Below are positions 72 to 59,146 of a DNA stretch of 64,000 bases, in pieces. The DNA lies in the IMG/VR virus record IMGVR_UViG_2903405734_000002, positions 1 to 64,000 of that record; one strand, 5' to 3'. A program made the translations under genes and the position numbers. Below the pieces are notes generated by a model, which saw only the letters and a program-made list of their open reading frames with translations, was not told the DNA's origin and did not search any database. The stretch comes from a virus (Duplodnaviria > Heunggongvirae > Uroviricota > Caudoviricetes). Position 1 is the first letter of the stretch. Every line of letters begins with the position of its first letter.

Positions 72-94
72 TCTTTTGCATATAAATGCAATCT

Positions 95-170: not shown

Positions 171-176
171 ATTTTT

Positions 177-2494: not shown

Positions 2495-3666
2495 GTATAA
2501 GTTGGCGGGATTTGGAGCTATTGATGGAAAAATGGATCTGGAAAAATGAAAAATGGCCTCAATTTCACTGGTCTGGCGCTGCTATCAACCCTCTTTTGAG
2601 GGAGGTAAGAAACAAGCTGGGATTGTTGCTTGGGATGACATCTGCGTCTGCATTTGATGGAAGCCTGGACTCTCAGGCCCTCGATACTTTGCTGGCTAAC
2701 ATTGTGGCGAGTTCCGCAATTGAAAATGAGAGACTGAATGCTGAGTCAGTTCGGTCTTCCCTTGCAAAGAGGTTCGGGATTTCATCTGAGCGCACATACC
2801 CAGTAAGCGAGAGCTCGGAAGGCTTGGCAGAAATGCTGTTCGATGCCTTGAGTCGAGACGGCATAGAGAGACCACTAACCAAAGAGCGGCTGTTCCGCTG
2901 GCATGAATGTCTATTTCCAGGATGTGATGATCTCATTATCGGCAGCAGGGTCTCTCCTGGTAAGCTCAGAGGGCCAGAGGTAATGCAGGTGGTGTCTGGC
3001 AGGATAGATCGGCCTGTAGTGCATTTTGAGGCTCCTCCTCGCGATGGTCTTGAGGAGCAGCTAGATGAGTTTCTTGCCTGGTTTGAAGAAAGCCGGAGCG
3101 AGCAAGAGCAAGACCCGTTGCTAAGGGCCGGAATAGCGCACCTGTGGTTCGTTACATTGCATCCCTTTGATGATGGGAATGGAAGATTGACCAGGATGCT
3201 CACTGATTTGGCGCTAGCCCAGGCAGATCATCATGTTGTCCGCCTGTACGCCATGTCTGTTTCCATCCTTGATAAGCGAGCGGAGTATTACTCAGCACTC
3301 AAGAAAGCTCAGAGAGGTACTACAGACATAACATCATGGCTAGAGTGGTTTTATGCTACGCTGATCCACACTCTCGATGATGCACAGAAAAAAGTTTCAA
3401 CTACTGTTGCAAAGGCCGAATTCTGGCTTAAGAACCGAAGCCTCTCACTCAAGCCTGAACAGTTGAAGGTCTTGAATCGAATGTTAGATGGCGGAGAGAA
3501 GGGGTTTGAAGGCGGAATTAGCGCATCCCAGTACCAATCTGTCGCCAAGGTAAGTAAGGCAACCGCAACAAGGCACCTTGCCGAGCTTTTGGAAAATGGA
3601 TGTTTAGTGAAAGGTGCTGGCGGCGGCGGCAGCTCCAGGTACTTCATAAACACAAGCAAAAAGTAA
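2461..3666 (+). CDS. Fic/DOC family protein (adenylyltransferase-type) with C-terminal wHTH
   Basis: Canonical Fic motif HPFDDGNGRLTR. 401 aa. Confidence 0.9.
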   Translation: MSQSISVIGLAGISWRDLELLMEKWIWKNEKWPQFHWSGAAINPLLREVRNKLGLLLGMTSASAFDGSLDSQALDTLLANIVASSAIENERLNAESVRSSLAKRFGISSERTYPVSESSEGLAEMLFDALSRDGIERPLTKERLFRWHECLFPGCDDLIIGSRVSPGKLRGPEVMQVVSGRIDRPVVHFEAPPRDGLEEQLDEFLAWFEESRSEQEQDPLLRAGIAHLWFVTLHPFDDGNGRLTRMLTDLALAQADHHVVRLYAMSVSILDKRAEYYSALKKAQRGTTDITSWLEWFYATLIHTLDDAQKKVSTTVAKAEFWLKNRSLSLKPEQLKVLNRMLDGGEKGFEGGISASQYQSVAKVSKATATRHLAELLENGCLVKGAGGGGSSRYFINTSKK

Positions 3667-4507: not shown

Positions 4508-5632
4508 TTATTTTTTGGGTTTTGAGACGATAATGAGCTCTTCGCTTGAATCAGTTTTGCTTAGGGCGTACTTGTATCCTCCGGCAGAGTAGACGGTTGC
4601 CTCTCTATTGAACGAAGACATCACCTTGGCCGCCTCCAGGGGGACTGGAAGACCATCGCTCCTATAGCTAAACACGATTGTTGCATTAGGCCACCTGTTG
4701 CAGATCGCGGTGAGCTCGGCAAGTGCGGTATCGGGCTTGAGCCAGGCACTGGGCTTGCGAGAGACAGGGCGATGTGGATACCTTTCATCGCCAGATGAGA
4801 ATAATGAATAATCACAAAGGCCATCAAGGAAGTGATAGAAGTCGCTGTAATCAACAGAAACTCCCTTGCCATTGATGTAAGGCGGGTCTAGATAAATCAG
4901 ATCATAATCATCGGCAAAATCACTGAGCGATGCAGAATTAAAGCCAGTAACTCTTGACTCGCTACATTCAGAAATTTCCCCCTTAAAGTTCTTTAGCTCA
5001 TTAATGCACTTAATTGCATGCTTTAGGATTGGGGTTTCCCAAGTCATTTTGTTACCAAAACTTCTCTTTACTTCCTTGGTGCGCATATCCAGATTAGAGC
5101 GGTGGAACAAGTTGTATGGGCGTTTTTTGGTTAGTGCTTGGCCCACGGCATAAATATAAAGACTACGCTCAAAATCATCGTATTTATCGATATTCTGACA
5201 GAATCGGTCAATCTCTGTGTTTTCTGACTCGATAAAAAAGATGCCTTTGTAATTTTTGGATACCAGGCCATCAGAAACAGGGAGCCTGTAAAGAAGATCT
5301 TCAAGGTCTTTTTTGAAGTCAATCTTCTCAATTTTTTCCTTTGTGAAAGTCTGAAAAACCTTAGCAGTATTTTGGCTGTAGAGCATAAAGTCATTTGATG
5401 AGACTTCTTTGCCAATTGTCCTGAACAGCAGAGAGACCACGCCAGAGCCAGAGAACATATCGAGTGGCCTGGTGTATTCAAGCTTGCCTAATGCCGATGC
5501 CAATTCGGAAAGGATCTTGCGCTTTGACCCCTGGAATCGTGTAGCTGGAAACGGCGGGAGAGGGTACTTTTCTGGGTTAAGGAAATAGATTTTTTTCCCG
5601 ATCTCATGAAATTCGGTTTTGTTATTATCCAA
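4508..5632 (-). CDS. N6-adenine DNA methyltransferase, Dam-like (D12 class)
   Basis: Motif I FSGSGVVSLL preceded by RFQGSKRKI (compare Dam KWAGGKYPL). Catalytic DPPY (LIYLDPPYINGKG). Confidence 0.85.
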   Translation of the reverse strand: MDNNKTEFHEIGKKIYFLNPEKYPLPPFPATRFQGSKRKILSELASALGKLEYTRPLDMFSGSGVVSLLFRTIGKEVSSNDFMLYSQNTAKVFQTFTKEKIEKIDFKKDLEDLLYRLPVSDGLVSKNYKGIFFIESENTEIDRFCQNIDKYDDFERSLYIYAVGQALTKKRPYNLFHRSNLDMRTKEVKRSFGNKMTWETPILKHAIKCINELKNFKGEISECSESRVTGFNSASLSDFADDYDLIYLDPPYINGKGVSVDYSDFYHFLDGLCDYSLFSSGDERYPHRPVSRKPSAWLKPDTALAELTAICNRWPNATIVFSYRSDGLPVPLEAAKVMSSFNREATVYSAGGYKYALSKTDSSEELIIVSKPKK

Positions 5633-13957: not shown

Positions 13958-14343
13958 TCATAAGCATATGAGTTATAAGGTTTTTTCTTATGTGCTAAAT
14001 GTTAATACAGTTATTTGAACTACTTTATCCACAGAAAATGTGGATAACATTACATAAAACAATGCAACAGGGCCTGGCAAGCCCTGATTTTTGCATCCTA
14101 AAAAGAAGGCAGACAAAATGCACAATATGATAAACAGAATCAAGAAGAAAAAATCCAGTAAAATTGTAAGAAACACAAAAGGGGCTGTGGAGATAGCTCT
14201 GATCTTCGGCATTATTGCGCTGGTTATCCAACAGTGGGGCCAGGCAGTAGAGAGGATAGGGTAGCAAACTGGGAATAATTCCGCACTTGTGCGGGAATAA
14301 TTAAAAGCGACAAAAGATCTTATTCTAATGTCGCTTTTATTAA

Positions 14344-14760
14344 TTAAACAGAAAGAACACCTTCCGAAATTACCTTTTCTGCAATCATTGCGTCCTCCTC
14401 AGAGGTAAAACCAAATTCTATTCTTTGTGTTGTCTTTTCCCTTTCCATTCCAAAGACAAGTATTTCAACCATTCCACCTTTATCTTTTGATTCGGATTTT
14501 GTTATGGAATACATTTGTATTTTTTTGTAAGGAATAGATGTGCAGTCAATTTTCTTGCCTATCATCCCAGATTTGCTGGAAACGATAATTCTTTTGTTGG
14601 TAAGAAATACACAAGCATCAATTTCTTTGCTTGCTACTAAAATCTCTTCACCTGGAATCATTAAATGTTCCACTAAGCTCTTGTGCTCTGGATTAATCAC
14701 CAGTGCCTTAATATACCACGAATTAAAATCTAACATTTTAAACTCCAAAAACAACCCCAC
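14344..14760 (-). CDS. hypothetical protein, possible bacterial PH (bPH)-like domain
   Basis: 138 aa. Terminator hairpin at 14302-14338 downstream. Confidence 0.45.
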   Translation of the reverse strand: MGLFLEFKMLDFNSWYIKALVINPEHKSLVEHLMIPGEEILVASKEIDACVFLTNKRIIVSSKSGMIGKKIDCTSIPYKKIQMYSITKSESKDKGGMVEILVFGMEREKTTQRIEFGFTSEEDAMIAEKVISEGVLSV

Positions 14761-14787
14761 CTTGGGTGGGGTTATTATAGTTATTGC

Positions 14788-16788
14788 TTAGAATGGAATC
14801 AAGTCATCTCTATCGTGTGATTTTGACTGTTGCTCTTGCCTGGCTGTCTTATCAATTTCGCCAAGCACTTTCCCATCTGACACGCTCTTGAGCATTTCAT
14901 AAACGCTGTCGAACTCCATTGCCTTCTTGGTTAGCGCAATCTCCATCTTAATGGCTGCCAGCTCATGATCTTTTGCGATTGACGGGTGATCACCACCACA
15001 AAAATCGTGACAGGCAAATGCATTAAAAACAGGCTCTTTGCTAGTGAGATCAGCATTTTTCTTGGAGATATGTGATACAGGAATAACACTGATCAGTGAG
15101 TGGAACTCCTTGCCGTTTTCGGTTGAGGTTGCCTTAAACAAAATCTCTTTCCTCGAAGACAGTGCCTTCCATGAATCAATTGAAATTTGCCTTCTTGTTA
15201 GCTCTTCCGCACCAATATCAGCGGTTTCCCTAATTGACCTGACAAGTGCAGAGTCAGCAAAAAGAGAATCCCTCTTGTTGGTGATTTCCTGCAAGGTGAT
15301 TTTGCCGTTCTTTTCTTGATAGATGTCGCAATTAAAGAATTCCTTGCTGTTCAGCTCAGAATCTGTAACTGTTCCGATAACTGGCTTAATATCAACCGCT
15401 GGGAATTTCTTCCACAGGTAGGCATCAATGTCATCACACTTATCATGCGTCATTTCAGAAACAGCATCTAGGGTGATCTCATCCTTAATAAGACTGTTCA
15501 AGAATAGCTCTTTCTTGTTGTCAATTGCATAAGAAATATTGTCTACCGCCCCTACAAACTTCTCTTTATTTGAGCCAGAAAGCGCATTCAAAATTCCGAA
15601 GTTAAAGTCATGAATCTTGACATATTTTTCAATAAAACCATCAACCTCTTTCTGGGATGAGAAATTAAGATCTTTGTTGAAGCAAATCTCAACAGCAGCC
15701 TGTATCCTTGCCCTTGATGGATTAGGAGAATTCAGTTCAAAATCAGAGATGTTGAGCTCATTGAAGTATTTGCTCATAACCTTGTTTGACTCTGTTCCTC
15801 CATTAAATGCATCATAAACCCTGCTAAAGGCAGAGTATGCGCCTTCAATTTCATTTGGAATGTAAAGATACATCTCGTTCCGAGATGCAAAGTCCAGTGT
15901 GTTTGCACATGAATTCTTAGGATTCAGTGTCACAAATCTTTTTTTCTCTGTGTGCGGCCCTTGGAATGGATCTTCACCAAGTTCTTTGCTCTCCACATCC
16001 AAGAAAACAGTCTCTTTCGTCCAGTATTTTGAAAGCCTATCTTCCAGCTTTGCATATCTTTCCTGGTAGATGCCGGAGAAGAGATTACCAGGAACAAATG
16101 TATCATTCTTTTTCTGGTATTCGTTCACAATCCCCTTAATGGTTTGAAGCTTGCGCAGCTCCTCTTTTTCATTAAAGAATACATTTCCCATGTCACTGGC
16201 TTTGTTAAGCAGCCTGACGGACGTATGAATAGGGGTTCCGCACCACGAAGCCTTGAGCTGCCTTGTGTAAATGAAATCCTGAAACTCTGGAGTCCAGCAC
16301 ACAGTCCTTTCACGAACATCAAGTGCTACCTGTACAGCATTAATGTCAAATGATTTGATGATTGTTTTGGCAAGATCTAAGCCTTGAATCCCTGATGTGG
16401 AAATGTGAATGTTGTTGATTCTTTCGTTTTCAGGGACAGTGCTTGATGCAATGATTTGATATGTAGACTTAGGGAACGGGCCTGTCATCAACTCATTTGC
16501 AAAGCTTGATTCGATGGTCAATCCTCCACCTACATCAGATCTTACAAGATTTGTTCCTGCACCATCTTTTACATCATAATCACGATTCTCAAAGGCCCCA
16601 CGCAGGAATACATCAAGATCCTTGTATCTGCCCTGAACTGGAAGCCCTACAACTTCATAGAGTGCAGATGCAACTGCTTGACCAGCAAAAATTCCACCGA
16701 TAGGAAGCTGACCAAACTTCTCTTCCAGCACATCCATGATTTTATTGAACAAAACCTTATTGTTCCATTTTTCAAGATCGTACATCAT
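14788..16788 (-). CDS. hypothetical large protein (666 aa), possible pol-beta-like nucleotidyltransferase N-terminus
   Basis: N-terminal GGIFAGQAV...RYKDLDVFL loosely resembles hG[GS]...D[IL]D nucleotidyltransferase motifs; weak. Terminator 14747-14776 downstream. Confidence 0.5.
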   Translation of the reverse strand: MMYDLEKWNNKVLFNKIMDVLEEKFGQLPIGGIFAGQAVASALYEVVGLPVQGRYKDLDVFLRGAFENRDYDVKDGAGTNLVRSDVGGGLTIESSFANELMTGPFPKSTYQIIASSTVPENERINNIHISTSGIQGLDLAKTIIKSFDINAVQVALDVRERTVCWTPEFQDFIYTRQLKASWCGTPIHTSVRLLNKASDMGNVFFNEKEELRKLQTIKGIVNEYQKKNDTFVPGNLFSGIYQERYAKLEDRLSKYWTKETVFLDVESKELGEDPFQGPHTEKKRFVTLNPKNSCANTLDFASRNEMYLYIPNEIEGAYSAFSRVYDAFNGGTESNKVMSKYFNELNISDFELNSPNPSRARIQAAVEICFNKDLNFSSQKEVDGFIEKYVKIHDFNFGILNALSGSNKEKFVGAVDNISYAIDNKKELFLNSLIKDEITLDAVSEMTHDKCDDIDAYLWKKFPAVDIKPVIGTVTDSELNSKEFFNCDIYQEKNGKITLQEITNKRDSLFADSALVRSIRETADIGAEELTRRQISIDSWKALSSRKEILFKATSTENGKEFHSLISVIPVSHISKKNADLTSKEPVFNAFACHDFCGGDHPSIAKDHELAAIKMEIALTKKAMEFDSVYEMLKSVSDGKVLGEIDKTARQEQQSKSHDRDDLIPF

Positions 16789-17090
16789 ATTTATTTAACA
16801 CCTTGTTTTGTCATAACTTTTATCATTATACCACCACCACAACAATTAATTAAATAAAATAAATTATTGTTGGCAAAATAAATCACACCTTCACATGATT
16901 GTTTTGGATTTTAAATATTTATTTATCCGAATAACTTTCCGTTTGCTTGATTTTTTATTAGGTTTGGCGTTCTTATCTTGTATAAATCATCATCAAACCG
17001 TGTGAATAGATGATTATTTGTTTGAATAATAAGGTTGTGATGGTAATATGGCAGCACCTATAACAATAACAATGAAGCCATAATAATAAC

Positions 17091-18686
17091 ATGAAAAAGA
17101 ACAGTGGTTTTACTCTTTTAGAGCTACTCTTGGTGATTGGCCTGTCTACAGCCATAGCCGTTGTGGCCTTTCAGGACAAAATGCTTGAGACCGAGCAGTC
17201 ACAGGCAAGACAGCTTGGTATGGAGCTCTTTCAGTACAACTCCGCCGTACAAAACTATCTTGCTCATGAATCAGGAAACAAGAATCCGGCATCTTTGAAC
17301 GGGGTAAAGCACAGTGGTGTAAACTGGCTTAAATCCTCATCATCCTGTAGTGGCGGCCAGGCTGTGAAGGAGTGGCTTGCCTGTAGATTCCTTCAAGCGC
17401 AAGGTGGAAAAACCACTTTTGGTCGCCTGTCTTTCAACACAACCCTCTCGTTCTCAAGCTCTGAGGGTTTGAGTGCAACAACAGTGGTTAGCCCGCTTGA
17501 GTTCAATAAAAATGGGGTGATGGAGAGAAGGGGTGATCTGAGTGGGTTGGCGGCTCTCGTTGCTTCTGGTGCTTATTCGGTTAAGGACAAACCTATGGCG
17601 GCCAACTCTCAGGATAGCTCCATCGTTTACTGCCCAGAAACCGCATCAAAATCGCCGAGCATGGCCGCGATTTGTAATGGCAGGGATGGGTCTATTGTGA
17701 TGTTTAGCCGCAACTTGAGCGAGTCTGATAGATGGCTTCGCGTTGATCATGGCAACGTGATGCAAAACACTCTTGAATTCCGCACTGGCAGTACAACTCC
17801 TGAGTCCCTTTCTGAGATCCAAAAGATTGACTCTGTTGCTCGTCAAATCCGCAACGTTGCCAGGATATACAACCTTGGCGATGGCAATACCAACGGAGAA
17901 AATGACAATCTTTATCTTGGAAAAAGAAAAGGCGAGTTCGCCAAAACATCTGCGACACTTAAAAGTGACGCTGTAATTGTTGATGCTGATCAGGAGATTC
18001 TTGGGAAGTTAATTGTCCAAAGTGATGTTATTGCAAGAGGAAATATAACATCTGAGAAGGACATTCTTGCCAAGGGCAACATAACATCTGAGAAGGATGT
18101 TCTTGCTAAGGGCAACATAACAGCTGAAAAGGATATTCTTGCAATTGGAAACATTACCTCTAAGGGCGGTCTAAAAGTAGATAAAGATGCCTTAATAAGT
18201 GGCAATACGACCACATCAAAAATAATTGATGCTAATGACGGAAACTACTATGTTGACATGAATGGATCATCAAAACTAAATGTTCTTGTTGCAAATCAGA
18301 TAGAATCAACAGGATTTATTCTTCCTGGCGCATTTAAACCAGGAGAAAACTGTTCAAGAAATGGGGCTATTGGCAGAAACTCAGCAACTAATGGGCCTAT
18401 GCTTTGTGTTAACAATAAATGGGAAAGTAATGAATCCAAGATAGGGCCTTGGGTTGCTTATAGTCCAAATGTAACCTATACAGCCCCATCAGATGGTTTT
18501 ATCACTGCTAAGACACGGCACAACAATTGGGTTTCTATATCTGTTGGTGGTTCAGAGCGCTGCCATGTTGCAGCACGAGATAAATACGGCCAAGGACAGG
18601 TAAGCTGTACAAGCATTGTTGCCAAAGGAGAGAAATTCAGGGTTACTGGTGGCATTCAATATATTTATTTCAGGCAGATCGGGTAA
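17091..18686 (+). CDS. large type IV pilin-domain protein (paralogue 1 of 3)
   Basis: Prepilin leader MKKNSG|FTLLELLLVIG with E+5. Contains an internal 33-bp (11-aa) AKGNITSEKDIL repeat x3.5. Cys-containing C-terminal domain. Confidence 0.8.
   Translation: MKKNSGFTLLELLLVIGLSTAIAVVAFQDKMLETEQSQARQLGMELFQYNSAVQNYLAHESGNKNPASLNGVKHSGVNWLKSSSSCSGGQAVKEWLACRFLQAQGGKTTFGRLSFNTTLSFSSSEGLSATTVVSPLEFNKNGVMERRGDLSGLAALVASGAYSVKDKPMAANSQDSSIVYCPETASKSPSMAAICNGRDGSIVMFSRNLSESDRWLRVDHGNVMQNTLEFRTGSTTPESLSEIQKIDSVARQIRNVARIYNLGDGNTNGENDNLYLGKRKGEFAKTSATLKSDAVIVDADQEILGKLIVQSDVIARGNITSEKDILAKGNITSEKDVLAKGNITAEKDILAIGNITSKGGLKVDKDALISGNTTTSKIIDANDGNYYVDMNGSSKLNVLVANQIESTGFILPGAFKPGENCSRNGAIGRNSATNGPMLCVNNKWESNESKIGPWVAYSPNVTYTAPSDGFITAKTRHNNWVSISVGGSERCHVAARDKYGQGQVSCTSIVAKGEKFRVTGGIQYIYFRQIG
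18046..18180 (+). repeat. In-frame 33-bp coding tandem repeat (about 3.5 copies)
   Basis: aagggcaacataacatctgagaaggatgttcttgct-like units encoding (A)KGNITSEKDIL. Confidence 0.7.
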
Positions 18687-18719
18687 TCCCCTTTGCAGCA
18701 TATTTAATTAGGGGACTTA

Positions 18720-20594
18720 ATGAAAAACAAAGGGTTTACTCTTCTAGAATTATTGTTGGTTATTGGCATCACAACATCAATGGCTATTGTTTCGTTTCAA
18801 GATAAGATGCTTGAGACGGAGCAATACCAGGCAAGAAAATTAGGGATGGAGTTGTTTCAATACAACTCCGCTGTTCAAAACTATCTGGCACATCAATCTG
18901 GAAACCCTAACCCTAAATCACTGGAAAAAACGCACATTGGTGTAAAGTGGCTTAAGTCCACCAGCTGCGGCGGAGAGAGTGATAAAGAGTGGTTGTCTTG
19001 TAATTTTCTTGGGTACACAAATGGGAAAACCTCGTTTGGCAGGCTCTCGTTTAGTACAACCATTGTGTATGAGAACAATAACGTTCTTACTGCTAGAACA
19101 GTTATGAGCAAGCTGAATGTCGGCACCGCTGGTAAGAACCAGGAGAGGGCTGATCTCAGTGGTCTTGCAGCTATGGTGGCATCAGGGGCCTATGCCGTCA
19201 GTGAGGATGGAAGAGCTGCCAGCGCTCAAGATAGCACCATCGTTTACTGCCCAGATACATCCATTCCAACAGCCAGCACAGCGGCTTGTCAGGGTGAGAA
19301 AGGGGTAATAGTGATGATTGGCCGAAATCAGAGCTCATCAGACAGATGGCTAAGGGTTGATCATGGTAACGTGATGCAAAACGCTTTGGAATTTCGGACA
19401 GGGGACTCCACGCCATCAACGCAATCAGAGCTTTCTGCAATAGATGGATTCAATAGACAGATCCGTAATGTAGCTCGAATTTACAACCTTGGAGATAGCA
19501 ATAGTAATTCATCTAGTGACAACCTTTATCTCGGAAAGAAATATGGCAATGCAGCAAAAAGCATGGCTACTCTTGCAAACAATGCAGTTATTGTTGATGC
19601 CGACCAAGAAATTCTTGGAAGGTTGGTTGTTTCTTCGTCTATTCAGGCCAAAGGCAATATCTCCACAGAAAAAGATATTAGTGCAAAAGGAAATATCTCA
19701 TCTGACGGCAAGATTACAGCCAATCAAGATATTGAATCAAAGAAAAACATCTATGCGAATGGAAATCTTATTTCAGCAGGTGATGCAAACATTGGAAATA
19801 CTCTTAATGTAACAAGGGATGCCGCGATTAATGGTGCAGCAACGATAAACGGAATTGTTACAGCAAAAAGTAAAATGGCTGTTGGCGATGATGCCACGTT
19901 CAATGGAAACATCTTCGGAAAGAAAAGTATTTTTGTAGATCAAAACGGAACATTCAACGGCATCGTTTCAACTCAAAGATTGGTTGATGCCAATAATAAT
20001 GGATATTATGTAGACCCCAGCGATACATCAAGACTAAATAGCGTGAATGCGAACTATCTAAAATCATATGGAGATATCTCTTCTGATGGAAGTATTTATG
20101 CAAATGGAAATATGAGTGCTAATGGCAATGTATCATCAGGAAACATTGCATCAGGAAAGTATATTCTTCCAAACCAGGTTGTTGGCGTAAATAGTTCCTG
20201 TGCGGGCCTTCCTTCTGGAACAATCGCAAAAAGTCCGCAAGGAGAGATTTTAAGTTGCCAATCTGGAATTTGGGCGGGTTCAAAAAGTGACATGCAGACT
20301 TTTTCTGGCAATAGCTCAATTAGCGGATTGACGCCATACAAAAAATATCTTGTCACAGTGTATGGCATTACTGATGACAAAGGGGAGAGAGGTGCGTGGT
20401 TAGGGCCTGTTAAAGTAACCAACAGCAGTGGGGGAGTAATTGATACTACAAGTAGTCTTGATATAAACTGGATGGATGGAAATACCCCTCAGAGTGCTGT
20501 TTTTATAATTAACGCTCCATATGATGGTGTTATTTATGGATATACAGATAATGACAATGCTGCGCTTAATATGAAAGCAGTTTCCCTTAATTAA
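18720..20594 (+). CDS. large type IV pilin-domain protein (paralogue 2 of 3)
   Basis: Leader MKNKG|FTLLELLLVIG. N-terminal about 300 aa is conserved with paralogue 1 (RADLSGLAA.VASGAY, DRWLRVDHGNVMQN, IRNVARIYNLGD). The C-terminal half diverges. Confidence 0.8.
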   Translation: MKNKGFTLLELLLVIGITTSMAIVSFQDKMLETEQYQARKLGMELFQYNSAVQNYLAHQSGNPNPKSLEKTHIGVKWLKSTSCGGESDKEWLSCNFLGYTNGKTSFGRLSFSTTIVYENNNVLTARTVMSKLNVGTAGKNQERADLSGLAAMVASGAYAVSEDGRAASAQDSTIVYCPDTSIPTASTAACQGEKGVIVMIGRNQSSSDRWLRVDHGNVMQNALEFRTGDSTPSTQSELSAIDGFNRQIRNVARIYNLGDSNSNSSSDNLYLGKKYGNAAKSMATLANNAVIVDADQEILGRLVVSSSIQAKGNISTEKDISAKGNISSDGKITANQDIESKKNIYANGNLISAGDANIGNTLNVTRDAAINGAATINGIVTAKSKMAVGDDATFNGNIFGKKSIFVDQNGTFNGIVSTQRLVDANNNGYYVDPSDTSRLNSVNANYLKSYGDISSDGSIYANGNMSANGNVSSGNIASGKYILPNQVVGVNSSCAGLPSGTIAKSPQGEILSCQSGIWAGSKSDMQTFSGNSSISGLTPYKKYLVTVYGITDDKGERGAWLGPVKVTNSSGGVIDTTSSLDINWMDGNTPQSAVFIINAPYDGVIYGYTDNDNAALNMKAVSLN

Positions 20595-20606
20595 AAGGAT
20601 AATAAA

Positions 20607-22415
20607 GTGAAAAATAAAGGGTTTACGCTGCTTGAGTTGCTGCTGGTGATTGGTATCACTACATCAATGGCGGTAGTAACTTTTCAAGACAAGATGCTTG
20701 AGACAGAGCAGTCTCAGGCTCGCCGACTCGGCATGGAGATCTTCCAGTACAACTCCGCCGTTCAGAACTATCTGGCCCACCAATCGGGCCAGCAAAACCC
20801 TGCATCAGTGGCAGGTACATTCAAAGGGGTGAATTGGCTTAAGTCCACCAGCTGCGGAGGAATGGCTGATAAGGCATGGCTGTCGTGCAATTTCCTGAGT
20901 CACAGTGGGGGGAAAACCACTCTTGGCCGTCTCGGCTTTACCACTGAGATTAAGTATGACCCCTCAGTTGGGTTAACTGGCCGAACAGTGATGGATAAGC
21001 TCTCTCTCGGGAGTGGGAGTAGTACACAGGAACGTGCTGACCTATCTGGCCTGGCCGCACTGGTGGCATCTGGTGCCTATGCTGTCAGTGAAGACGGAAA
21101 AGCAGTGAGAGCTCAGGATAGTACAGTTGCCTACTGCCCAGACACAGCAGGGACATCTCCTATCAATGCAGTATGCCAAGGCGATAAGGGCAGCATCGTG
21201 ATGCTCAGCCGCAATCTCAGCGCTGCTGACCGCTGGCTCAGGGTTGATCATGGCAACGCCATGCAGAATGCACTGGAATTCCGCACAGGCGATCCTACGC
21301 CTGCCAGCCAAACTGATATCCAGGCTATCGATTCCGTCAGTCGCCAGATCCGCAACGTGGCTCGCATCTACAATCTCGGCAACAGTAACAGCAATGGCGA
21401 AAGCGACAACCTCTACCTGGGCAAAAGGTACGGGAATGCAGCCAAGAGCATGGCAACACTCCCTAGCAACGCCGTTGTCATCGATGCCGATCAGGAGGTG
21501 CTAGGGAAGCTGGTCGTAGCTGCATCTATTGATGCAAAAGGGGATATAAGCACAAAGGCCAACTTCAAGGCAGACGGAAGTGCGATCATCAAAAAAGACA
21601 TTAGCGCAGGAAGTGACCTATCTGTTGGAGGAAAGACAACTCTTGCCGGAGATGTTGCGGCTCAGAGTAATGTCTCTATTGGCAAATCACTGTCAGTGGC
21701 CGGAGAGATTGAAGGTAAGCAAAACCTCAAAATTGCCAATGGAGGTAACTTTGGTGGGGATGTTATCGCCAAGAACATTACTGCTGGAGGCAAGATTGCA
21801 GGCGGCACACTCAATATCAGTGGTTCTGGCTACTTCAATGGCGAGCTTTTCGCTCAACGGCTTGTTGACTCAAATGATCCAGCCTATCTGGTTGACCCCA
21901 ATAATGAGTCAAATTTCAATGAGGTGCGGGTTACAACACTAAATGCTCGGGGCAACGTCAATGCTACCAATGTCAACGCAACCAATGAGGTGAGGAGCAG
22001 GACGGTCATTGCCAATGGTGATACCGTTGCTGGTGGCTATGCAGCAGGCCAATATTTGCTATCAAACGGCACAGCTTGGGAAGGTGGGTCATGTCATGGT
22101 GTAGCACATGGGGCAATCTCAAAGGATCCATCTGGCGGACTTCTTACTTGCAAGGGCGGTGTTTGGAAGAGTCCATCGCAAGCGATGCAGATCACCACTG
22201 CTTATGGGCCTGTCTCCGCTTGTAGAGGAACCTCAACAGCAACATGCCCTGCTGGCACCAAAGTTATTTCTGGAGGTCATCACTGGCAGGGTTCTTGTGG
22301 GTGTGGAGAAGAGCACCGCTTTATCCTCAATAGTGCCCCTAATGGAACAAGAGCCTGGAGTGCTCAGATGGAGTGTTCTCATGTTATGGCGGTAGCCATA
22401 TGCGTGACAGAATGA
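20607..22415 (+). CDS. large type IV pilin-domain protein (paralogue 3 of 3), visibly higher GC
   Basis: Same leader and core as paralogues 1 and 2. Distinct Cys-rich C-terminus. Nucleotide composition is clearly more GC-rich than copies 1 and 2. Confidence 0.8.
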   Translation: MKNKGFTLLELLLVIGITTSMAVVTFQDKMLETEQSQARRLGMEIFQYNSAVQNYLAHQSGQQNPASVAGTFKGVNWLKSTSCGGMADKAWLSCNFLSHSGGKTTLGRLGFTTEIKYDPSVGLTGRTVMDKLSLGSGSSTQERADLSGLAALVASGAYAVSEDGKAVRAQDSTVAYCPDTAGTSPINAVCQGDKGSIVMLSRNLSAADRWLRVDHGNAMQNALEFRTGDPTPASQTDIQAIDSVSRQIRNVARIYNLGNSNSNGESDNLYLGKRYGNAAKSMATLPSNAVVIDADQEVLGKLVVAASIDAKGDISTKANFKADGSAIIKKDISAGSDLSVGGKTTLAGDVAAQSNVSIGKSLSVAGEIEGKQNLKIANGGNFGGDVIAKNITAGGKIAGGTLNISGSGYFNGELFAQRLVDSNDPAYLVDPNNESNFNEVRVTTLNARGNVNATNVNATNEVRSRTVIANGDTVAGGYAAGQYLLSNGTAWEGGSCHGVAHGAISKDPSGGLLTCKGGVWKSPSQAMQITTAYGPVSACRGTSTATCPAGTKVISGGHHWQGSCGCGEEHRFILNSAPNGTRAWSAQMECSHVMAVAICVTE

Positions 22416-22526
22416 TTTTTTAATATTTTTTGAAAAAAGAACTAGACAGGCATTAATTTGTGGATTAATATCTAAAAACACCCTGACGAAAGGCACAAAC
22501 GAGTCGTCAGGAGTAAGTGAAGAAGT

Positions 22527-22602
<76 letters not shown>

Positions 22603-22605
22603 GAG

Positions 22606-22681
<76 letters not shown>

Positions 22682-22683
22682 AT

Positions 22684-22759
22684 TCTCTCGTAGTTCAGTC
22701 GGTAGAACGGTGGACTGTTAATCCATATGTCACAGGTTCAAGTCCTGTCGAGAGAGCCA
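22684..22759 (+). tRNA. tRNA-Asn(GTT)
   Basis: Acceptor TCTCTCG/CGAGAGA, anticodon loop ctGTTaa, CCA encoded. Confidence 0.85.
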
Positions 22760-22816
22760 AATTTCTTCTGTCGATGCATTTCGGCAAGAAGAGAGCCGAA
22801 AGGCTCGCCTGTTTGA

Positions 22817-22892
22817 TGCGAGGTAGAGCAGTTGGTAGCTTACGGGCCTCATAAGTCCGTGGTCGCTGGTTCGAGTCCAGCCCTCGCTTCCA
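22817..22892 (+). tRNA. tRNA-Met(CAT), with 1:72 mismatch
   Basis: Anticodon loop ctCATaa, T-arm GCTGG-TTCGAGT-CCAGC, CCA encoded. Positions 1 and 72 are T:T. Confidence 0.8.
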
Positions 22893-22898
22893 AGATTT

Positions 22899-22975
22899 GG
22901 GATTGTAGCTCAGTTGGTTAGAGTGCTGGCCTGTCACGTCAGAGGTCGCGGGTTCGAGCCCCGTCAGTCCCGCCA
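22899..22975 (+). tRNA. tRNA-Asp(GTC)
   Basis: Acceptor GGGATTG/CAGTCCC, anticodon loop ctGTCac, CCA encoded. Confidence 0.85.
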
Positions 22976-22980
22976 TACAT

Positions 22981-23064
22981 GCGAATGTGGTGAAATTGGT
23001 AGACGCAGGACATTTAAAATGTTCCGCCTTTGGCGTGTCGGTTCGATCCCGACCATTCGCACCA
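22981..23064 (+). tRNA. tRNA-Leu(TAA)
   Basis: Acceptor GCGAATG/CATTCGC, anticodon loop ttTAAaa, long variable arm, CCA encoded. Confidence 0.85.
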
Positions 23065-23258
23065 GTTTCAGGGGCCTTCATGTTGAGGGCGTCCTGTTGA
23101 GTAAAGGCGCACCAAGTGCGTATTTTTAGTGATGCATCAGGAATGCATCCTCAAGCAGTGAAGTTGTGTTTTAGCAGTACCTAAAAAATTTAATTCAACA
23201 AAAATAATAACATCACCTCAGAGTGATGTTTTTTATTTCTAAAAAACGGAGTTTCAAT

Positions 23259-24644
23259 ATGATTGATACCAACGTGTTCTACATGCTTGGCCTTGTAGTC
23301 TTTCTTGTCGGCTGCTTTGCGCTTGCTAAGCTCTTGCTCAGTCTGCGCCGAGTTGTTCCTACCAACATGGTGCATATCGTTCAAAGCAAGAACGTGACCA
23401 AGACCTACGGTAAGGGCAAAGACTTTGGTAACGTCTACTACAAATGGCCGGAGTGGATCCCGTATCTGGGTGTGATGGTCACCGAATTTCCTGAGTCGAT
23501 CTTCCAGGTTAGCCTGACTGGTTATGATGCATACGACCAGAAAAAACTGCCGTTCATTGTGGATATCGTGGCATTTTTCAGGATTAAAGATGCTGGTGTC
23601 GCAGCACAGCGCGTAGCTTCCTTCCAAGAACTGCGAACTCAGCTGGAAAACATCGTTCAGGGTTCTGTTCGCCGTATCCTGGGTGGTTCTGAGCTGGACT
23701 CCATTATGACCGAGCGTTCTGTGTTTGGTGATCAGTTCACCGAAGAAGTAAGGCTTCAAGTCGAAGAGTGGGGCGTACTTCCGGTTAAGATGATTGAATT
23801 CATGGATATCCGCGACAAGCAGGGCTCCAGTGTTATTGAAGACATGATGGCGAAAGAAAAATCTCGCATCAACATGGAGTCTCGTACCCAGATTGCTGAA
23901 AACAACAAGCAGGCAACTGTAAAAGAGGTTGAAGCCTCGCAGGTCATCGAGTCAGCAAAAATCGAAGCGAAACAGCAGGTCAGTCTGAAAAACGCAGAGG
24001 TTCAATTGAACGTTGGTCTGGCCGATGAAAGAGCCAAGCAAGAAAACCACATTGCTCGTGCTGTAACTATCGAGAAAGAGATGCTTGCCTCCAAAGTGAG
24101 CCAGGTATCCAGCGCAGAGATTGAGCGTGAAGTTGCGTCTGTTCAAGCTCAGCAGAAGAAAGAGGTTGAAGTAATTACAGCGGATGCTCGCGCCTCTGTT
24201 CTCAAGATCGATACTGCTGCACATGCAGAAGCCAAAGTGAAAGAGGCCGAAGGTTTGCTGCAAGCCGCCAGGATGGAGTCTGAGGGGGTTATTGCCATCG
24301 GTGATGCGAAAGCTAAAGCAGAAGAAGCCATGCTGATGGCTCCTGTTAATGCCCAGATCGCTCTCTCCAAAGAGATTGGTAGCAACCAGGGATACCAAGA
24401 ATACCTCATCACCACCAACAAGATTGAGGCGGCTAAAGAGGTTGGTATCGAGTCTGCCAAGGCTATGCAGAATGCAGAGCTCAAGGTTATTGCCAACACT
24501 GGCTCTCCCGATGCGGGTCTCTCATCTATCGCAGACGCCTTCACCGCAAAAGGTGGTGCTGGAATGATGGGAATGCTGGAGAACCTGGGACAATCAGAGT
24601 TCGGCAAAGACATTATCGGCAGGCTGTCAGGCCAAGCGAAGTAA
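23259..24644 (+). CDS. SPFH/band-7 flotillin-like protein (YqiK/FloT-like)
   Basis: N-terminal TM helix, SPFH domain, long Ala/Glu/Lys coiled-coil C-terminus. Start set at MIDTN (RBS ACGGAG). Terminator 24659-24688. Confidence 0.8.
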   Translation: MIDTNVFYMLGLVVFLVGCFALAKLLLSLRRVVPTNMVHIVQSKNVTKTYGKGKDFGNVYYKWPEWIPYLGVMVTEFPESIFQVSLTGYDAYDQKKLPFIVDIVAFFRIKDAGVAAQRVASFQELRTQLENIVQGSVRRILGGSELDSIMTERSVFGDQFTEEVRLQVEEWGVLPVKMIEFMDIRDKQGSSVIEDMMAKEKSRINMESRTQIAENNKQATVKEVEASQVIESAKIEAKQQVSLKNAEVQLNVGLADERAKQENHIARAVTIEKEMLASKVSQVSSAEIEREVASVQAQQKKEVEVITADARASVLKIDTAAHAEAKVKEAEGLLQAARMESEGVIAIGDAKAKAEEAMLMAPVNAQIALSKEIGSNQGYQEYLITTNKIEAAKEVGIESAKAMQNAELKVIANTGSPDAGLSSIADAFTAKGGAGMMGMLENLGQSEFGKDIIGRLSGQAK

Positions 24645-24817
24645 TCAAAAAGCACACCAAAAGCCAGACAAATGTCTGGCTTTTTTTGATTAAAAATATA
24701 TCAAATAAAGAACGAAGGCGAAAAAACGAAAAAAAACAGAATAATTAGATTGACCATAAATAACTAACTTGGTATAGTGTGTTCATCAGGTGAGGGGAAC
24801 ACCCCAAAATACTAGAT

Positions 24818-24952: not shown

Positions 24953-25029
24953 GGCCCCGTATCACAATCGGTTAGTGGAGCGTCCTCATAAGGCGTAACG
25001 TCTCGGTTCGAGTCCGAGCGGGGCCACCA
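24953..25029 (+). tRNA. tRNA-Ile2-like (anticodon CAT, lysidine type)
   Basis: Acceptor GGCCCCG/CGGGGCC resembles E. coli ileX/ileY (GGCCCCT). Anticodon loop ctCATaa. CCA encoded. Strong terminator hairpin follows at 25046-25097. Confidence 0.75.
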
Positions 25030-27146: not shown

Positions 27147-27514
27147 GGGGCTGACCTGGTTTCGACAGGGTATAGGTGCCTGAATTGCGAGTCGTGTGTT
27201 ATGTATCACACGTAAATCCATGCATAAAACAAATAATCGCTAACGACGAAAGCTTCGCTGTCGCCGCCTAATAAGCGGTAGACAGCCTCTCCACTCAGGG
27301 TTTCTCAGGGCCTAGAGAACATGGAGAGTCAAGTCTCCCTGAGATCGCGTGGCGGCTTCTGTCAGTAGCCAAGACGCTAAACGTAACCTGACTCGCCGGA
27401 GGAATGATTTGCCCATCAATCATCTTCCTGGCTAAAAAAATGATGAGGCTATGCTCGTAGATGTTCAACGCACTGGTGTTCTGGACGCGGGTTCGATTCC
27501 CGCCAGCTCCACCA
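27147..27514 (+). ncRNA. ssrA: tmRNA (SsrA), tag peptide ANDESFAVAA
   Basis: 5' GGGGCTGAcctggtttcgac. Resume codon gct then AACGACGAAAGCTTCGCTGTCGCCGCCTAA. 3' tRNA-like end GGACGCGGGTTCGATTCCCGCCAGCTCCACCA. 368 nt. Confidence 0.95.
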
Positions 27515-29809: not shown

Positions 29810-30268
29810 ATGAAGGCAAAAGCAGCTATTGTAAAAAACCGAAAGGCTGAGTTCGACTATTTTTTGAAAGAGCGTATTGAAGCTGGCCTGTCTCTAGAAG
29901 GGTGGGAGGTTAAGTCTCTCAGGGAGGGGAAAGTAAACCTCCAGGAAAGCTATGTGATGAATATCGGCGGCAGGATGATGTTGGTAGGCTGCCATATTAC
30001 TCCAATGATCCAGGCCAGCACTCATGCTCATTGTGATCCGGTCAGAAACAAGCCGCTCCTTCTGAACAAGAAAGAGATTGACCACTTGATTGGATCTGTT
30101 GAGCGCAAAGGCTTTACTTGCATTCCGGTTTCGCTGTATTTTAGCGGAGGAAAAGTTAAGCTTGAGATTGCACTTGCGGAAGGCAAAAAGCAGCACGATA
30201 AGCGAGCAACAGAGAAGGCCAAGGATATGAAGCGCGAAGCAGATAAGGCCATCAAGGGGCTTCGCTAG
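29810..30268 (+). CDS. smpB: SsrA-binding protein SmpB
   Basis: KAEFDYFLKERIEAGLSLEGWEVKSLREGKVNLQESYV...GKKQHDKR closely matches SmpB. Confidence 0.9.
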   Translation: MKAKAAIVKNRKAEFDYFLKERIEAGLSLEGWEVKSLREGKVNLQESYVMNIGGRMMLVGCHITPMIQASTHAHCDPVRNKPLLLNKKEIDHLIGSVERKGFTCIPVSLYFSGGKVKLEIALAEGKKQHDKRATEKAKDMKREADKAIKGLR

Positions 30269-33402: not shown

Positions 33403-33561
33403 TGACTGGCTGTTTTTTGCCCAGAAGAATCCCCTATTCATTATTTTTAAAAAAACCAAACAACCTTATATTTTGGCTTGACGAATATAATATTTTAAGT
33501 ATAATTAACTCCATCAAAGCAAAACAACAACTAGCAAAAAATAATAGATAGGGTGAAAATT

Positions 33562-34002
33562 ATGAGTAATTCAATGAAAGTATCCGGCCTGGTAAAAGCG
33601 CTCATCAAATCTTCTGTTGAAACCAACGTGTTTCTCGTTAATGGCGTAAGGCTGTCTGGCTGCATTGAGAAAGCCGATGCTTCGACTCTCATTCTTGTTC
33701 GTGATGGCAAAAAACAAGCCATCTATCGACATGCTATTGCCACCATTGTTCCTGTAGGGCAATTCAGCAAAGAAGCATTTGACTCTGCCGCTGATTGCGC
33801 AGAGCAAAGCACTGGCGAGAGCCTGCTCAGTGGCCTTGTAAAAACTGGTGACAACATCAATGCATTCATGCTGAATGGAATTCGCTTGTCTGGTGTTCTT
33901 CTGTGTGAAGATGATGAAATGCTCCTGATGTCAGTGCCAGAAAAAGATCAGTTCCAATCCGTAATGAAGCGAGCTATCGCCACTCTTTCTGCTTTGGATT
34001 AA
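33562..34002 (+). CDS. tandem double-Hfq (Sm-like) domain protein
   Basis: Domain 1 VFLVNGVRLSGCIEKADASTLILVRDGKKQAIYRHAIATIVP, compare Hfq [23 protein letters not shown]...YKHAISTVVP. Domain 2 AFMLNGIRLSGVLLCEDDEMLLMS...MKRAIATL. Confidence 0.8.
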   Translation: MSNSMKVSGLVKALIKSSVETNVFLVNGVRLSGCIEKADASTLILVRDGKKQAIYRHAIATIVPVGQFSKEAFDSAADCAEQSTGESLLSGLVKTGDNINAFMLNGIRLSGVLLCEDDEMLLMSVPEKDQFQSVMKRAIATLSALD

Positions 34003-34092: not shown

Positions 34093-34527
34093 ATGACCAA
34101 TAAAAAGATTTTTATGATTGAGGCGCTGATTAAGTCAGAGCAGGCTGTGGATGTGTTTCTCGTAAATGGAATCTGCCTAAAAGGGCGTCTGGTTGCACAG
34201 ACCAGTGGATACTTGGTGTTGTCCGATTTCATGGCGAAGAAAGCGCCTCAAATCATCTATCGACACGCTATCTCTACCATTGTTCCCATTGGTGCGTTCG
34301 ATGTTGAGTCTGCACTGGTTGATCCTATGCTGCCAGAGTGCAAGCAAGGAGAGGCCCTTCTTGACGCGATTATGAGCCAAAATCTGAGCACAAGTGTGTT
34401 TATGATGAATGGCATTCGCCTGGTGGGCATCCTTGTCAGTCAGACAGAAGAATCCTTCCTTATGAAGGTGTTCAACGGCTGCCAGGAGATCCGAAAAGCA
34501 GCAATTGCAACCATTGTGCCGTCATAA
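34093..34527 (+). CDS. tandem double-Hfq (Sm-like) domain protein, paralogue
   Basis: Domain 1 VFLVNGICLKGRLVAQTSGYLVLSD...IIYRHAISTIVP. Domain 2 VFMMNGIRLVGILVSQTEESFLMKV...RKAAIATIVP. RBS GGAG. Confidence 0.8.
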   Translation: MTNKKIFMIEALIKSEQAVDVFLVNGICLKGRLVAQTSGYLVLSDFMAKKAPQIIYRHAISTIVPIGAFDVESALVDPMLPECKQGEALLDAIMSQNLSTSVFMMNGIRLVGILVSQTEESFLMKVFNGCQEIRKAAIATIVPS

Positions 34528-47901: not shown

Positions 47902-47927
47902 AAACGCACAAAAACAGAGAACAAAAT

Positions 47928-56658: not shown

Positions 56659-59146
<2,488 letters not shown>

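What the first reader, a model, noticed from the sequence alone, without database searches (positions are those of the whole stretch)
17091..22415. Three tandem 530-620-aa type IV-pilin-domain proteins with conserved N-halves and divergent C-terminal domains; the third copy is compositionally foreign
All three begin with a class III prepilin leader (MKKNSG/MKNKG | FTLLELLLVIG) and share about 300 aa of core, then diverge into different Cys-containing C-terminal modules. The third gene is visibly more GC-rich than the first two, which suggests horizontal acquisition or gene conversion from a differently composed cassette. Copy 1 also contains an in-frame 33-bp repeat (x3.5). The design resembles adhesin or antigenic-variation pilin systems (constant pilin stem, variable tip), but without a shufflon recombinase.
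Basis: seen in the sequence. Interest (0 to 1): 0.6.

Follow-up and report, generated by a model that had tools for sequence, protein, structure and literature searches.

The report
Tandem PilV-like pilus-tip adhesin genes
Three neighbouring genes on a large, low-GC mobile element of Aeromonas encode oversized pilus subunits with a constant stem and exchangeable tips, most likely alternative adhesins of a conjugative pilus that are kept as separate genes instead of being shuffled by DNA inversion.

Summary
Three co-directional ORFs (531, 624 and 602 aa) each have a prepilin leader. They share about 300 aa of N-terminal domain and then diverge. Two details are wrong. The repeat in copy 1 is 36 bp x 3.9, not 33 bp. 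Copy 3 is more GC-rich (51.5% against 44.2% and 41.4%) but is not compositionally foreign (GC3 z = +0.67 among 66 window ORFs).

The proteins are distant relatives of PilV, the tip adhesin of conjugative type IVb pili:
- They align collinearly with IncK PilV, including its Cys-loop motif.
- The tails of copies 2 and 3 are 35-50% identical to PilV tails.
- The models resemble the type IVb tip pilins TcpB and CofB.
- Family members occupy the PilV position of type IVb pilus operons beside Dot/Icm genes on pMPPla107-type megaplasmids.

The window matches an Aeromonas veronii assembly whose low-GC contigs carry at least eight paralogues. There are no inverted repeats and no recombinase was found, so this is not a shufflon. 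Near-identical elements differ only in the variable half of copy 1. One chimera joins another paralogue's stem to copy 3's variable half.

Verdict: a shufflon-free, multi-gene variant of a known adhesin system. The function is inferred.

The parts
17091..18686 (+). pilV-like gene 1 (531 aa). Leader MKKNSG|F; constant N-domain aa 1-~300; short beta-helix; Cys-loop aa 421-444; tail aa 445-531 (2 Cys).
   Evidence: ORF; N_methyl; 100% identical to A. veronii PTH79989.1; landmarks
18019..18161 (+). In-frame 36-bp (12-aa, KGNITSEKDILA) tandem repeat x 3.9 that forms the beta-helix stalk of copy 1.
   Evidence: TRF; the repeat finder family D6; absent from the allele in L001
17888..18690 (+). Variable half of copy 1. 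This is the only segment that differs (30-85% identity per 100 bp, 126-bp length difference) between the window and the otherwise >=97% identical contig L001, so it is an allelic cassette replacement.
   Evidence: blastn and mafft sliding identity; allele profile shows a break at aa ~300
18720..20594 (+). pilV-like gene 2 (624 aa). Leader MKNKG|F; SD AGGGG; beta-helix aa ~305-425 (borderline Bactofilin hit); Cys-loop aa 494-518; Cys-free tail aa 519-624 that is 50% identical to the tail of Acidovorax pACP4.3 PilV.
   Evidence: AF2 model pLDDT 67
20607..22415 (+). pilV-like gene 3 (602 aa, GTG start, SD AAGGA). GC 51.5%; beta-helix aa ~303-420; Cys-loop aa 496-520; 6-Cys tail aa 521-602. The last 121 aa are 35-39% identical to IncI2 and Xanthomonas PilV C-termini.
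   Evidence: AF2 model pLDDT 70
16789..17090 (.). AT-rich divergent intergenic region upstream of copy 1 (presumed promoter region). The 33-nt and 12-nt gaps between the three genes suggest one operon.
   Evidence: sequence. The promoter scan is not above the shuffle expectation, so this is inferred only.
22527..23064 (+). Array of six tRNA genes (Thr, Thr, Asn, Met, Asp, Leu) immediately downstream. This is context only and is typical of the tRNA-rich megaplasmid class.
   Evidence: ARAGORN; Rfam

Best explanation
The three genes are paralogous PilV-like minor pilins. Each is a large subunit (about 525-620 aa once mature) that would be cleaved at G|F by a prepilin peptidase and inserted through its hydrophobic alpha1 helix at the tip of a type IVb ('thin', conjugative) pilus. 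Each protein has four parts. The first is a constant ~300-aa pilin domain with two disulfides, which docks into the filament. The second is a beta-helical stalk of variable length. The third is a conserved disulfide loop. The fourth is a short variable tail that would bind a surface receptor on the partner cell, as shown for R64 and TP114 PilV. They belong to a family of at least eight paralogues on a low-GC, tRNA-rich element of megaplasmid type in Aeromonas veronii and A. media. Classical IncI plasmids make alternative PilV tips by Rci-mediated inversion of a shufflon. This element instead keeps alternative tips as complete, separately translated genes. Diversity arises over evolutionary time by homologous exchange of the variable half, or of the tail alone, between alleles and between paralogues. 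Shown here: the homology, the architecture, the genomic position of relatives, the modular exchange, and the absence of a shufflon. Inferred: assembly into a pilus, tip location, the role in recipient recognition, and co-transcription.
For: - Pilin signature in all three.
- Collinear BLASTP against IncK PilV over aa 3-213 (E 8e-7) and aa 389-545 (E 2e-11), including the Cys-loop motif. hhalign probability is 92.8% over 53 columns around that motif.
- Tail of copy 2 is 50% identical to the Acidovorax PilV tail, and that PilV ends a genuine type IVb pil operon.
- The last 121 aa of copy 3 hit 271 plasmid records. In nearly all rows listed the match lies under a gene annotated pilV, including an IncI2 pilV followed by the shufflon integrase.
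- Family members occupy the PilV slot after TcpQ, secretin, PilO2, ATPase, T2SS-F, Bundlin/PilS pilin and ATPase. In two of the three loci this operon lies beside DotD/TraI/IcmT genes. The loci are pMPPla107 (30-32% identity, E 1e-38 to 1e-44), L025 and L026 (P0041, 50% identical to copy 2).
- Eight family members appear to share a contig with the type IVb ATPase, judged by matching contig lengths.
- Multi-copy in megaplasmids: 6 places in pBASL58, 4 in FeN3W and 3 in pPLMAXa. At least 8 in A. veronii GCA_003036425.1.
- Modular exchange: copy-1 alleles are 91-100% identical up to aa 300 and 15-73% after it. P0019 equals the P0030 stem (95-100%) plus the copy-3 variable half (95-100%). P0016 and P0021 differ only in the tail. 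There are 16 tail clusters among 79 proteins.
- No inverted repeats and no recombinase found.
- DsbB and a DsbA-like gene lie next to a second paralogue cluster.
Against: - The window proteins do not reach Pfam Shufflon_N (PF04917) or any NCBIfam PilV model, even at relaxed thresholds. They are therefore a separate, distant subfamily.
- The three genes are not next to any pilus machinery. None was found in the window or in any Aeromonas-element locus held. A type IVb operon on this particular element is inferred from relatives only.
- The tail models have low confidence (pLDDT <50 to 69), and Foldseek found no PDB match.
- There are no expression or functional data. The promoter scan is at chance level.
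Confidence: 0.65

Rival explanations
1. They are type IVb tip pilins, but they serve adhesion to animal, plant or abiotic surfaces, auto-aggregation, or pilus assembly and retraction (as for TcpB, CofB or Salmonella Typhi PilV), not recipient recognition in conjugation.
For: The closest solved structures are TcpB and CofB. The genes lie far from any transfer genes in the window. Hosts such as Aeromonas are colonisers of animals (own knowledge).
Against: In two of the three relatives examined, the family's in-operon members lie directly beside Dot/Icm-type transfer genes. The tails are homologous to those of conjugative-plasmid PilV proteins, whose variants set recipient specificity (PMC9045228).
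Confidence: 0.2
2. Copy 3 (or the whole trio) is a recent horizontal import or a gene-conversion product from a donor of different composition.
For: Copy 3 has 51.5% GC against 41-44% for its neighbours, and GC3 in the shared N-domain is 0.565 against 0.48 and 0.42.
Against: GC3 z is only +0.67 among 66 window ORFs, and several unrelated genes are equally GC-rich. The excess is largely in codon positions 1 and 2. Copy 3 orthologues are syntenic and 92-100% identical across elements. No high-identity conversion tracts exist between the copies.
Confidence: 0.08
3. This is a Neisseria-like antigenic variation system in which one expressed gene is rewritten within a cell from neighbouring silent cassettes.
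For: The genes are tandem copies with a constant 5' part and a variable 3' part. Chimeras between paralogues exist in the population.
Against: All three copies are complete, each with its own start codon and leader, and copies 2 and 3 have clear Shine-Dalgarno sequences while copy 1's is weak. The paralogues are only ~60-80% identical at the DNA level in the constant part, with identical runs of 19 nt or less. No truncated cassettes or inverted repeats are present.
Confidence: 0.04
4. They are T2SS pseudopilins or cytoplasmic bactofilin-type cytoskeletal proteins, as current database names suggest.
For: NCBI names them 'polymer-forming cytoskeletal protein' and JGI names them 'PulG/CcmA'. Pfam Bactofilin scores 26-30 bits against a cut-off of 27.9. 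GspH scores 22-28 bits.
Against: The GspH match covers only the first ~45 aa and is far below its 80-bit cut-off. The Bactofilin match covers only the ~90-aa beta-helix of a 600-aa protein that carries a prepilin leader and eight or more disulfide-prone Cys residues in two of the three copies. The homologies and contexts point to type IVb pili.
Confidence: 0.03

Closest known systems
PilV of IncI1/IncK/IncI2 plasmids (R64, TP114) with the Rci shufflon
   Same: Prepilin leader. Collinear, weak homology of the constant region, including the C..G..GR...G..LSCQSG.W loop. C-terminal tails are homologous (35-50% identity). The design is a constant stem with alternative tips. Family members sit last in a type IVb pil operon.
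   Different: No Rci recombinase and no sfx inverted repeats. Alternative tips are whole genes (three in tandem, at least eight per element), not invertible 3' segments. The N-domain is ~300 aa rather than ~200 aa, and the beta-helix stalk is 60-130 aa. PF04917 and the NCBIfam PilV models do not match. The trio is an orphan cluster beside tRNA genes.
TcpB (V. cholerae TCP) and CofB (ETEC CFA/III) type IVb minor pilins
   Different: No detectable sequence similarity. TcpB and CofB are single-copy genes in operons of virulence pili, and their known role is to initiate assembly and retraction and to bind secreted partners (PMC5207764).
[quoted passage not shown]
   Same: A multi-copy pilin-like family on tRNA-rich, TnpB-rich megaplasmids that carry Dot/Icm and BfpA-like pilins.
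   Different: That paper only counts the family. I could not verify that SF2096 is the same family. There was no DNA match in E. coli genomes, and the sequences are not held.
pMPPla107/pBASL58 Pseudomonas megaplasmid family
   Same: Low GC relative to the host, many tRNAs, MPF_I typing, and 2-6 homologues per plasmid, with a TROVE gene nearby in both pBASL58 and the Aeromonas element (PMC6482414).
   Different: Only 25-32% protein identity. The published descriptions do not mention pilins. The Aeromonas element has not been shown to be a plasmid.
Neisseria pilE/pilS antigenic variation
   Same: A constant N-terminal part and a variable C-terminal part of a pilin, with recombination moving the variable parts.
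   Different: Here every copy is a complete gene. There is no evidence of intra-cell conversion. The proteins are minor (tip) pilins, not the major pilin.

Membership tests
Type IV pilin superfamily | Class III signal peptide: short basic leader, G at -1, F at +1, E at +5, and a hydrophobic alpha1-N | tested here: met
   Leaders MKKNSG|FTLLE and MKNKG|FTLLE. Pfam N_methyl 19.6-22.3 bits. TIGR02532 15.7-17.1 bits against a cut-off of 16.3. PDB profile hits to pilin N-termini.
Type IV pilin superfamily | Pilin fold (long alpha1 packed on a beta-sheet, with disulfide-bonded regions) | tested here: met
   [not shown]
Type IV pilin superfamily | Cleavage and N-methylation by a prepilin peptidase, and incorporation into a filament | not testable with these tools
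   No A24 peptidase was seen in the window or in the related operons shown. An experiment is needed.
PilV (shufflon-type conjugative pilus tip adhesin) | Match to the curated family models (Pfam PF04917 Shufflon_N; NCBIfam PilV) | tested here: not met
   No hit, even at E <= 1, for the C-terminal ~230-325 aa of each of the three proteins, and none at E <= 0.01 for the full-length proteins. IncK PilV scores 2.8e-108 and Acidovorax PilV 2.6e-23 in the same search. Thirteen family members carry precomputed PF04917 hits.
PilV (shufflon-type conjugative pilus tip adhesin) | Detectable homology to bona fide PilV across the constant region and the Cys-loop | tested here: met
   BLASTP gives two collinear segments, E 8e-7 and 2e-11. 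hhalign probability 92.8%. tblastn hits lie under genes annotated pilV on IncK/IncI2 and other E. coli plasmids.
PilV (shufflon-type conjugative pilus tip adhesin) | Gene located at the distal end of a type IVb pil operon on a conjugative element | tested here: not met
   The window trio is flanked by an unknown 666-aa gene and a tRNA array. The feature is met for family members in pMPPla107, L025 and L026.
PilV (shufflon-type conjugative pilus tip adhesin) | Shufflon: an Rci tyrosine recombinase and inverted sfx repeats flanking alternative 3' segments | tested here: not met
   Zero inverted repeats in 16500-23200. No integrase domain in the scanned window ORFs.
PilV (shufflon-type conjugative pilus tip adhesin) | C-terminal segment binds recipient LPS or another surface receptor and sets mating specificity | not testable with these tools
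   Only homology of the tails to PilV tails is shown. Function is known for R64 and TP114 (PMC9045228).
T2SS minor pseudopilins (GspH/GspJ) | Full-length match to the equivalog models, ~140-200 aa in size, and a gsp operon context | tested here: not met
   22-28 bits against a cut-off of 80, covering aa 4-48 only. The proteins are 531-624 aa. No gsp genes lie nearby.
Bactofilin (PF04519) | The protein consists essentially of the bactofilin beta-helix domain and forms cytoplasmic polymers | tested here: not met
   Copy 1 has no hit, copy 2 scores 26.2 bits (below the 27.9 cut-off) and copy 3 scores 30.3 bits. The match covers ~90 of ~600 aa. A prepilin leader is present.
Phage tail fibre / receptor-binding proteins | Homology to phage proteins or a phage genomic context | tested here: not met
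   No PHROG family beyond a leader-only match. tblastn against 50,697 phage records gave no match.

The most novel reading that the evidence does not exclude
A family of tRNA-rich megaplasmid-type elements spanning Aeromonas, Pseudomonas and Vibrio, and possibly Enterobacteriaceae, has replaced the shufflon with a hard-wired, multi-gene repertoire of 2 to 8 or more PilV-like tip adhesins per element. The variable halves are swapped among loci and among elements at two fixed junctions: the N-domain/beta-helix boundary and the point just after the Cys-loop. Displaying several tips, simultaneously or under regulation, would set an unusually broad, cross-genus recipient range.
Probability: 0.35. 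Interest if true: 0.6.

Novelty: new variant of a known kind. Interest (0 to 1): 0.42.

Why it matters
Megaplasmids of this class are being found in more and more genera, but how they choose and reach recipients is unknown. A repertoire of separately encoded PilV-like tips with exchangeable modules would be a second genetic route to the outcome that shufflons achieve by DNA inversion. It gives concrete candidates for host-range determinants that can be tested by deletion and tail swapping. It also corrects misleading database names: 'polymer-forming cytoskeletal protein' and 'PulG/CcmA'.

Tried and rejected
- Phage origin: rejected. Megablast of 14000-24000 against phages and plasmids matched only tRNAs, tblastn against phages found nothing, and PHROGs gave nothing useful.
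- T2SS pseudopilin and bactofilin readings: rejected on coverage and cut-offs.
- Shufflon or silent cassettes: no inverted repeats and no truncated copies.
- Gene conversion among the three copies: no identical tracts longer than 19 nt.
- Copy 3 as foreign DNA: GC3 is within the window's range.
- Foldseek against PDB: no hit at E <= 0.001. afdb50 was unavailable.
- The search for homologous proteins with the copy 3 C-terminal 173 aa returned nothing, although identical full-length proteins exist. This is a prefilter limitation of the tool.
- Search for the Aeromonas element's own type IVb operon: tblastn found none in the window or in the Aeromonas-element loci held. The top 120 homologues of the pMPPla107 ATPase carry no Aeromonas name. 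The 486-kb, 43% GC contig with the operon (L025) comes from a cattle-diarrhoea metagenome of unknown host. The contigs carrying P0041 come from other samples.
- blastn of the copy 2 N-domain against complete E. coli genomes: no match.
- The only plasmid hit for copy 1's tail lies in an unannotated stretch next to T4P-like genes on A. hydrophila plasmid NZ_CP083945.1, with no ORF of 150 aa or more there.
Full report
**1. What is in the sequence**

Three + strand ORFs lie head to tail at 17091-18686 (531 aa), 18720-20594 (624 aa) and 20607-22415 (602 aa, GTG start). They are separated by 33 and 12 nt.
- Copies 2 and 3 have clear Shine-Dalgarno sequences; copy 1's is weak.
- Each protein starts with a short basic leader, G at -1, F at +1 and E at +5. 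Pfam N_methyl and TIGR02532 recognise this signature.
- The proteins are 48-52% identical overall. Long invariant blocks run up to a DADQE[IV]LG motif at aa 293-305.
- After that motif comes a beta-helical stretch of very different length. It gives borderline Pfam Bactofilin hits in copies 2 and 3.
- Next come a YYVDP-like motif and a conserved Cys-loop (C..G..I......G..L.C..G.W).
- The proteins end in unrelated tails of 87, 106 and 82 aa, with 2, 0 and 6 cysteines.

**2.

- The repeat in copy 1 has a 36-bp (12-aa) unit repeated 3.9 times at 18019-18161, not 33 bp.
- GC is 44.2%, 41.4% and 51.5%, so copy 3 is richer. It is not an outlier at synonymous sites. Among 66 window ORFs (GC3 mean 0.443, sd 0.077, range 0.27-0.61), copy 3's GC3 of 0.494 has z = +0.67. 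Its excess GC is largely in codon positions 1 and 2.
- The C-terminal halves of copies 1 and 2 are the low-GC3 oddities (0.29).
- Codon-level comparison shows no conversion tracts between the copies. Identical runs are 19 nt or less, and synonymous sites are largely randomised. The copies are therefore old paralogues.
- There are no inverted repeats in 16500-23200.
- No integrase domain appears among the scanned ORFs of the window.

**3. Where the window comes from**

- Copies 1 and 3 are 100% identical to Aeromonas veronii proteins. Copy 1 is PTH79989.1, on a 215-kb contig of GCA_003036425.1.
- Contigs that are 96.7-99.5% identical occur in an A. media assembly and in metagenomes.
- The window is 42.8% GC, far below Aeromonas chromosomes (about 58-62%, own knowledge).
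- It is full of genes without family assignment.
- It also carries 9 complete tRNA genes plus a partial one, a tmRNA, SmpB, two Hfq genes, an NAD-dependent ligase, an RNA-repair pair, TnpB, Fic and a methyltransferase.
- No phage signal was found.
- This profile matches the tRNA-rich pMPPla107/pBASL58 megaplasmids of Pseudomonas (PMC6482414) and the recently described Enterobacteriaceae megaplasmids (bioRxiv 10.1101/2025.09.30.679422).
- That the Aeromonas element is a plasmid is an inference.

**4. What the proteins are**

Sequence searches found 78 clusters of close relatives. A profile search found 479 representatives at E <= 1e-30, although some of those top hits are giant beta-helix repeat proteins that match only the stalk region. 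Four lines of evidence tie the family to PilV, the minor pilin and tip adhesin of conjugative type IVb pili.

(a) Copy 2 aligns collinearly with an IncK plasmid PilV. The aligned segments are aa 3-213 (E 8e-7) and aa 389-545 (E 2e-11). The second includes the loop [23 protein letters not shown]. hhalign of the family profile gives 92.8% probability.

(b) The tails are shared with bona fide PilV proteins.
- Copy 2's tail is 50% identical to that of Acidovorax pACP4.3 PilV, which closes a complete type IVb pil operon.
- Copy 3's last 121 aa match PilV of Xanthomonas plasmids (39%) and of IncI2 shufflon plasmids (35%), in 271 plasmid records.

(d) Family members sit exactly where pilV sits.
- In pMPPla107, a 492-aa homologue follows TcpQ, the secretin lipoprotein, PilO2, ATPase, T2SS-F, major pilin and ATPase. 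It is 30-32% identical, E 1e-38 to 1e-44. This operon lies directly after DotD/T4SS genes.
- The same arrangement occurs in a 486-kb, 43% GC metagenomic contig.
- It also occurs in a JGI contig whose PilV-slot protein (P0041) is 50% identical to copy 2.
- Eight family members appear to share a contig with the type IVb ATPase, judged by matching contig lengths.

The window proteins do not reach the curated PilV models, neither PF04917 nor NCBIfam. I therefore call them PilV-like, not PilV.

**5. A multi-gene, modular family**

- The same A. veronii assembly carries five more paralogues on a second low-GC contig. These are two tandem pairs (619+561 aa and 610+638 aa), beside DsbB and a DsbA-like gene, and one orphan of 623 aa. 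That makes at least eight in total.
- Pseudomonas megaplasmids hold 2-6 each.
- The preprint on pMEGA plasmids lists 'possible bacterial shufflons/pilin proteins, 7-16 per genome' without further analysis.

Three observations show that the variable part moves as a module.
1. The window and contig L001 are at least 97% identical in every 100-bp window across 14788-24700, except 17888-18690. That segment is the variable half of copy 1. It is 30-85% identical and differs in length by 126 bp.
2. Six copy-1 alleles are 91-100% identical up to aa 300 and 15-73% identical beyond it.
3. P0019 is a chimera. Its first ~280 aa equal those of another paralogue (P0030, 95-100%), and the rest equals copy 3's variable half (95-100%). 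P0016 and P0021 differ only in the tail after the Cys-loop.

This indicates two junctions: the N-domain/beta-helix boundary and the point after the Cys-loop. From recollection of the R64 literature, not checked here, the second junction is where shufflon sfx sites sit. Tails fall into 16 clusters among 79 proteins. In a tandem array, each variable half is flanked by conserved coding sequence: its own N-domain on one side and the next gene's leader and alpha1 on the other. This offers homology for such exchange, but that is an inference.

**6. Mechanism proposed**

- A prepilin peptidase would process each protein, and the alpha1 helix and pilin domain would seat it at the tip of a type IVb conjugative pilus.
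- The beta-helix would act as a spacer of adjustable length. The 36-bp repeat shows recent expansion of this stalk.
- The Cys-loop and tail would bind a receptor on the recipient cell. PilV variants of R64 and TP114 do this and thereby set recipient range in liquid mating (PMC9045228).
- Several complete genes give the element alternative tips without DNA inversion.
- Not shown: expression, assembly, tip location, receptor binding, and the presence of a type IVb operon on this Aeromonas element. No such operon lies in the window or in the Aeromonas-element loci I could read.

**7. Rivals**

- A role in colonisation or pilus dynamics rather than mating cannot be excluded.
- Horizontal origin of copy 3, Neisseria-like cassette conversion, T2SS pseudopilins, bactofilins and phage fibres are each contradicted by tests reported above.

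**8. Verdict**

The feature is real. Its design was read correctly by the first stage, and it is now placed as a shufflon-free, multi-gene variant of the PilV adhesin system on megaplasmid-type elements. The 'foreign third copy' claim is not supported. Interest is moderate. A specialist would find the logic familiar. The modular exchange and the link to megaplasmid host range are new, testable details.

Noticed in passing
window 27147-27514 (tmRNA), 29810-30268 (SmpB), 33553-34002 and 34093-34527 (Hfq x2): The low-GC element carries its own trans-translation pair and two Hfq paralogues. The tmRNA scores 197 bits in Rfam, with tag ANDESFAVAA, and SmpB is present. This is unusual cargo for a mobile element.
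   Followed up: partly
window 1-251, 22527-23064, 24953-25029: There are nine complete tRNA genes plus a partial one at the window start. Six of them form an array directly downstream of the pilV-like trio, and two tRNA-Thr(TGT) copies are 88% identical.
   Followed up: partly
window 47113-50341: Four tandem paralogous genes (262, 269, 259 and 263 aa) lie here. Two of them have weak LRR hits. They have the lowest GC3 in the window (0.27-0.31), so they are a second tandem family of possible surface or interaction proteins.
   Followed up: no
window 14788-16788 (-): A 666-aa ORF is transcribed divergently from the trio and is syntenic in related contigs. It has no Pfam, NCBIfam or PHROG match.
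   Followed up: partly
window 56659-58671, 61302-62510, 62513-63256: An NAD-dependent DNA ligase lies here, together with an HD/AAA_33 kinase-like gene adjacent to an RNA ligase. The last two look like an RNA-repair module, and TROVE/Ro-like genes occur elsewhere on the element (L024).
   Followed up: no
window 314-1525 (-), 2461-3666, 4508-5632: An IS605-type TnpB, a DUF4172-Fic protein and a D12 adenine methyltransferase lie near the window start. TnpB is also multi-copy in the published megaplasmids.
   Followed up: no
L019/L020 398-952 and 8311-9180: DsbB and a DsbA-like thioredoxin gene flank the second pilV-like cluster on the A. veronii 271-kb contig. They may support disulfide formation in these Cys-rich pilins.
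   Followed up: no
L021 21541-36551; L025 17060-20519; L026 11787-21502: A conserved block of multiple radical SAM/SPASM genes immediately follows the PilV-slot gene in all three type IVb operons examined. Its function is unknown.
   Followed up: no
[not shown]
   Followed up: partly
L022 9001-9345 (A. hydrophila plasmid NZ_CP083945.1 41241-41585): The only plasmid match to copy 1's tail (34% identity) lies in an unannotated 5-kb gap next to T4P/T2SS-like genes. No ORF of 150 aa or more is present there, so it may be a pseudogene or an assembly problem.
   Followed up: partly
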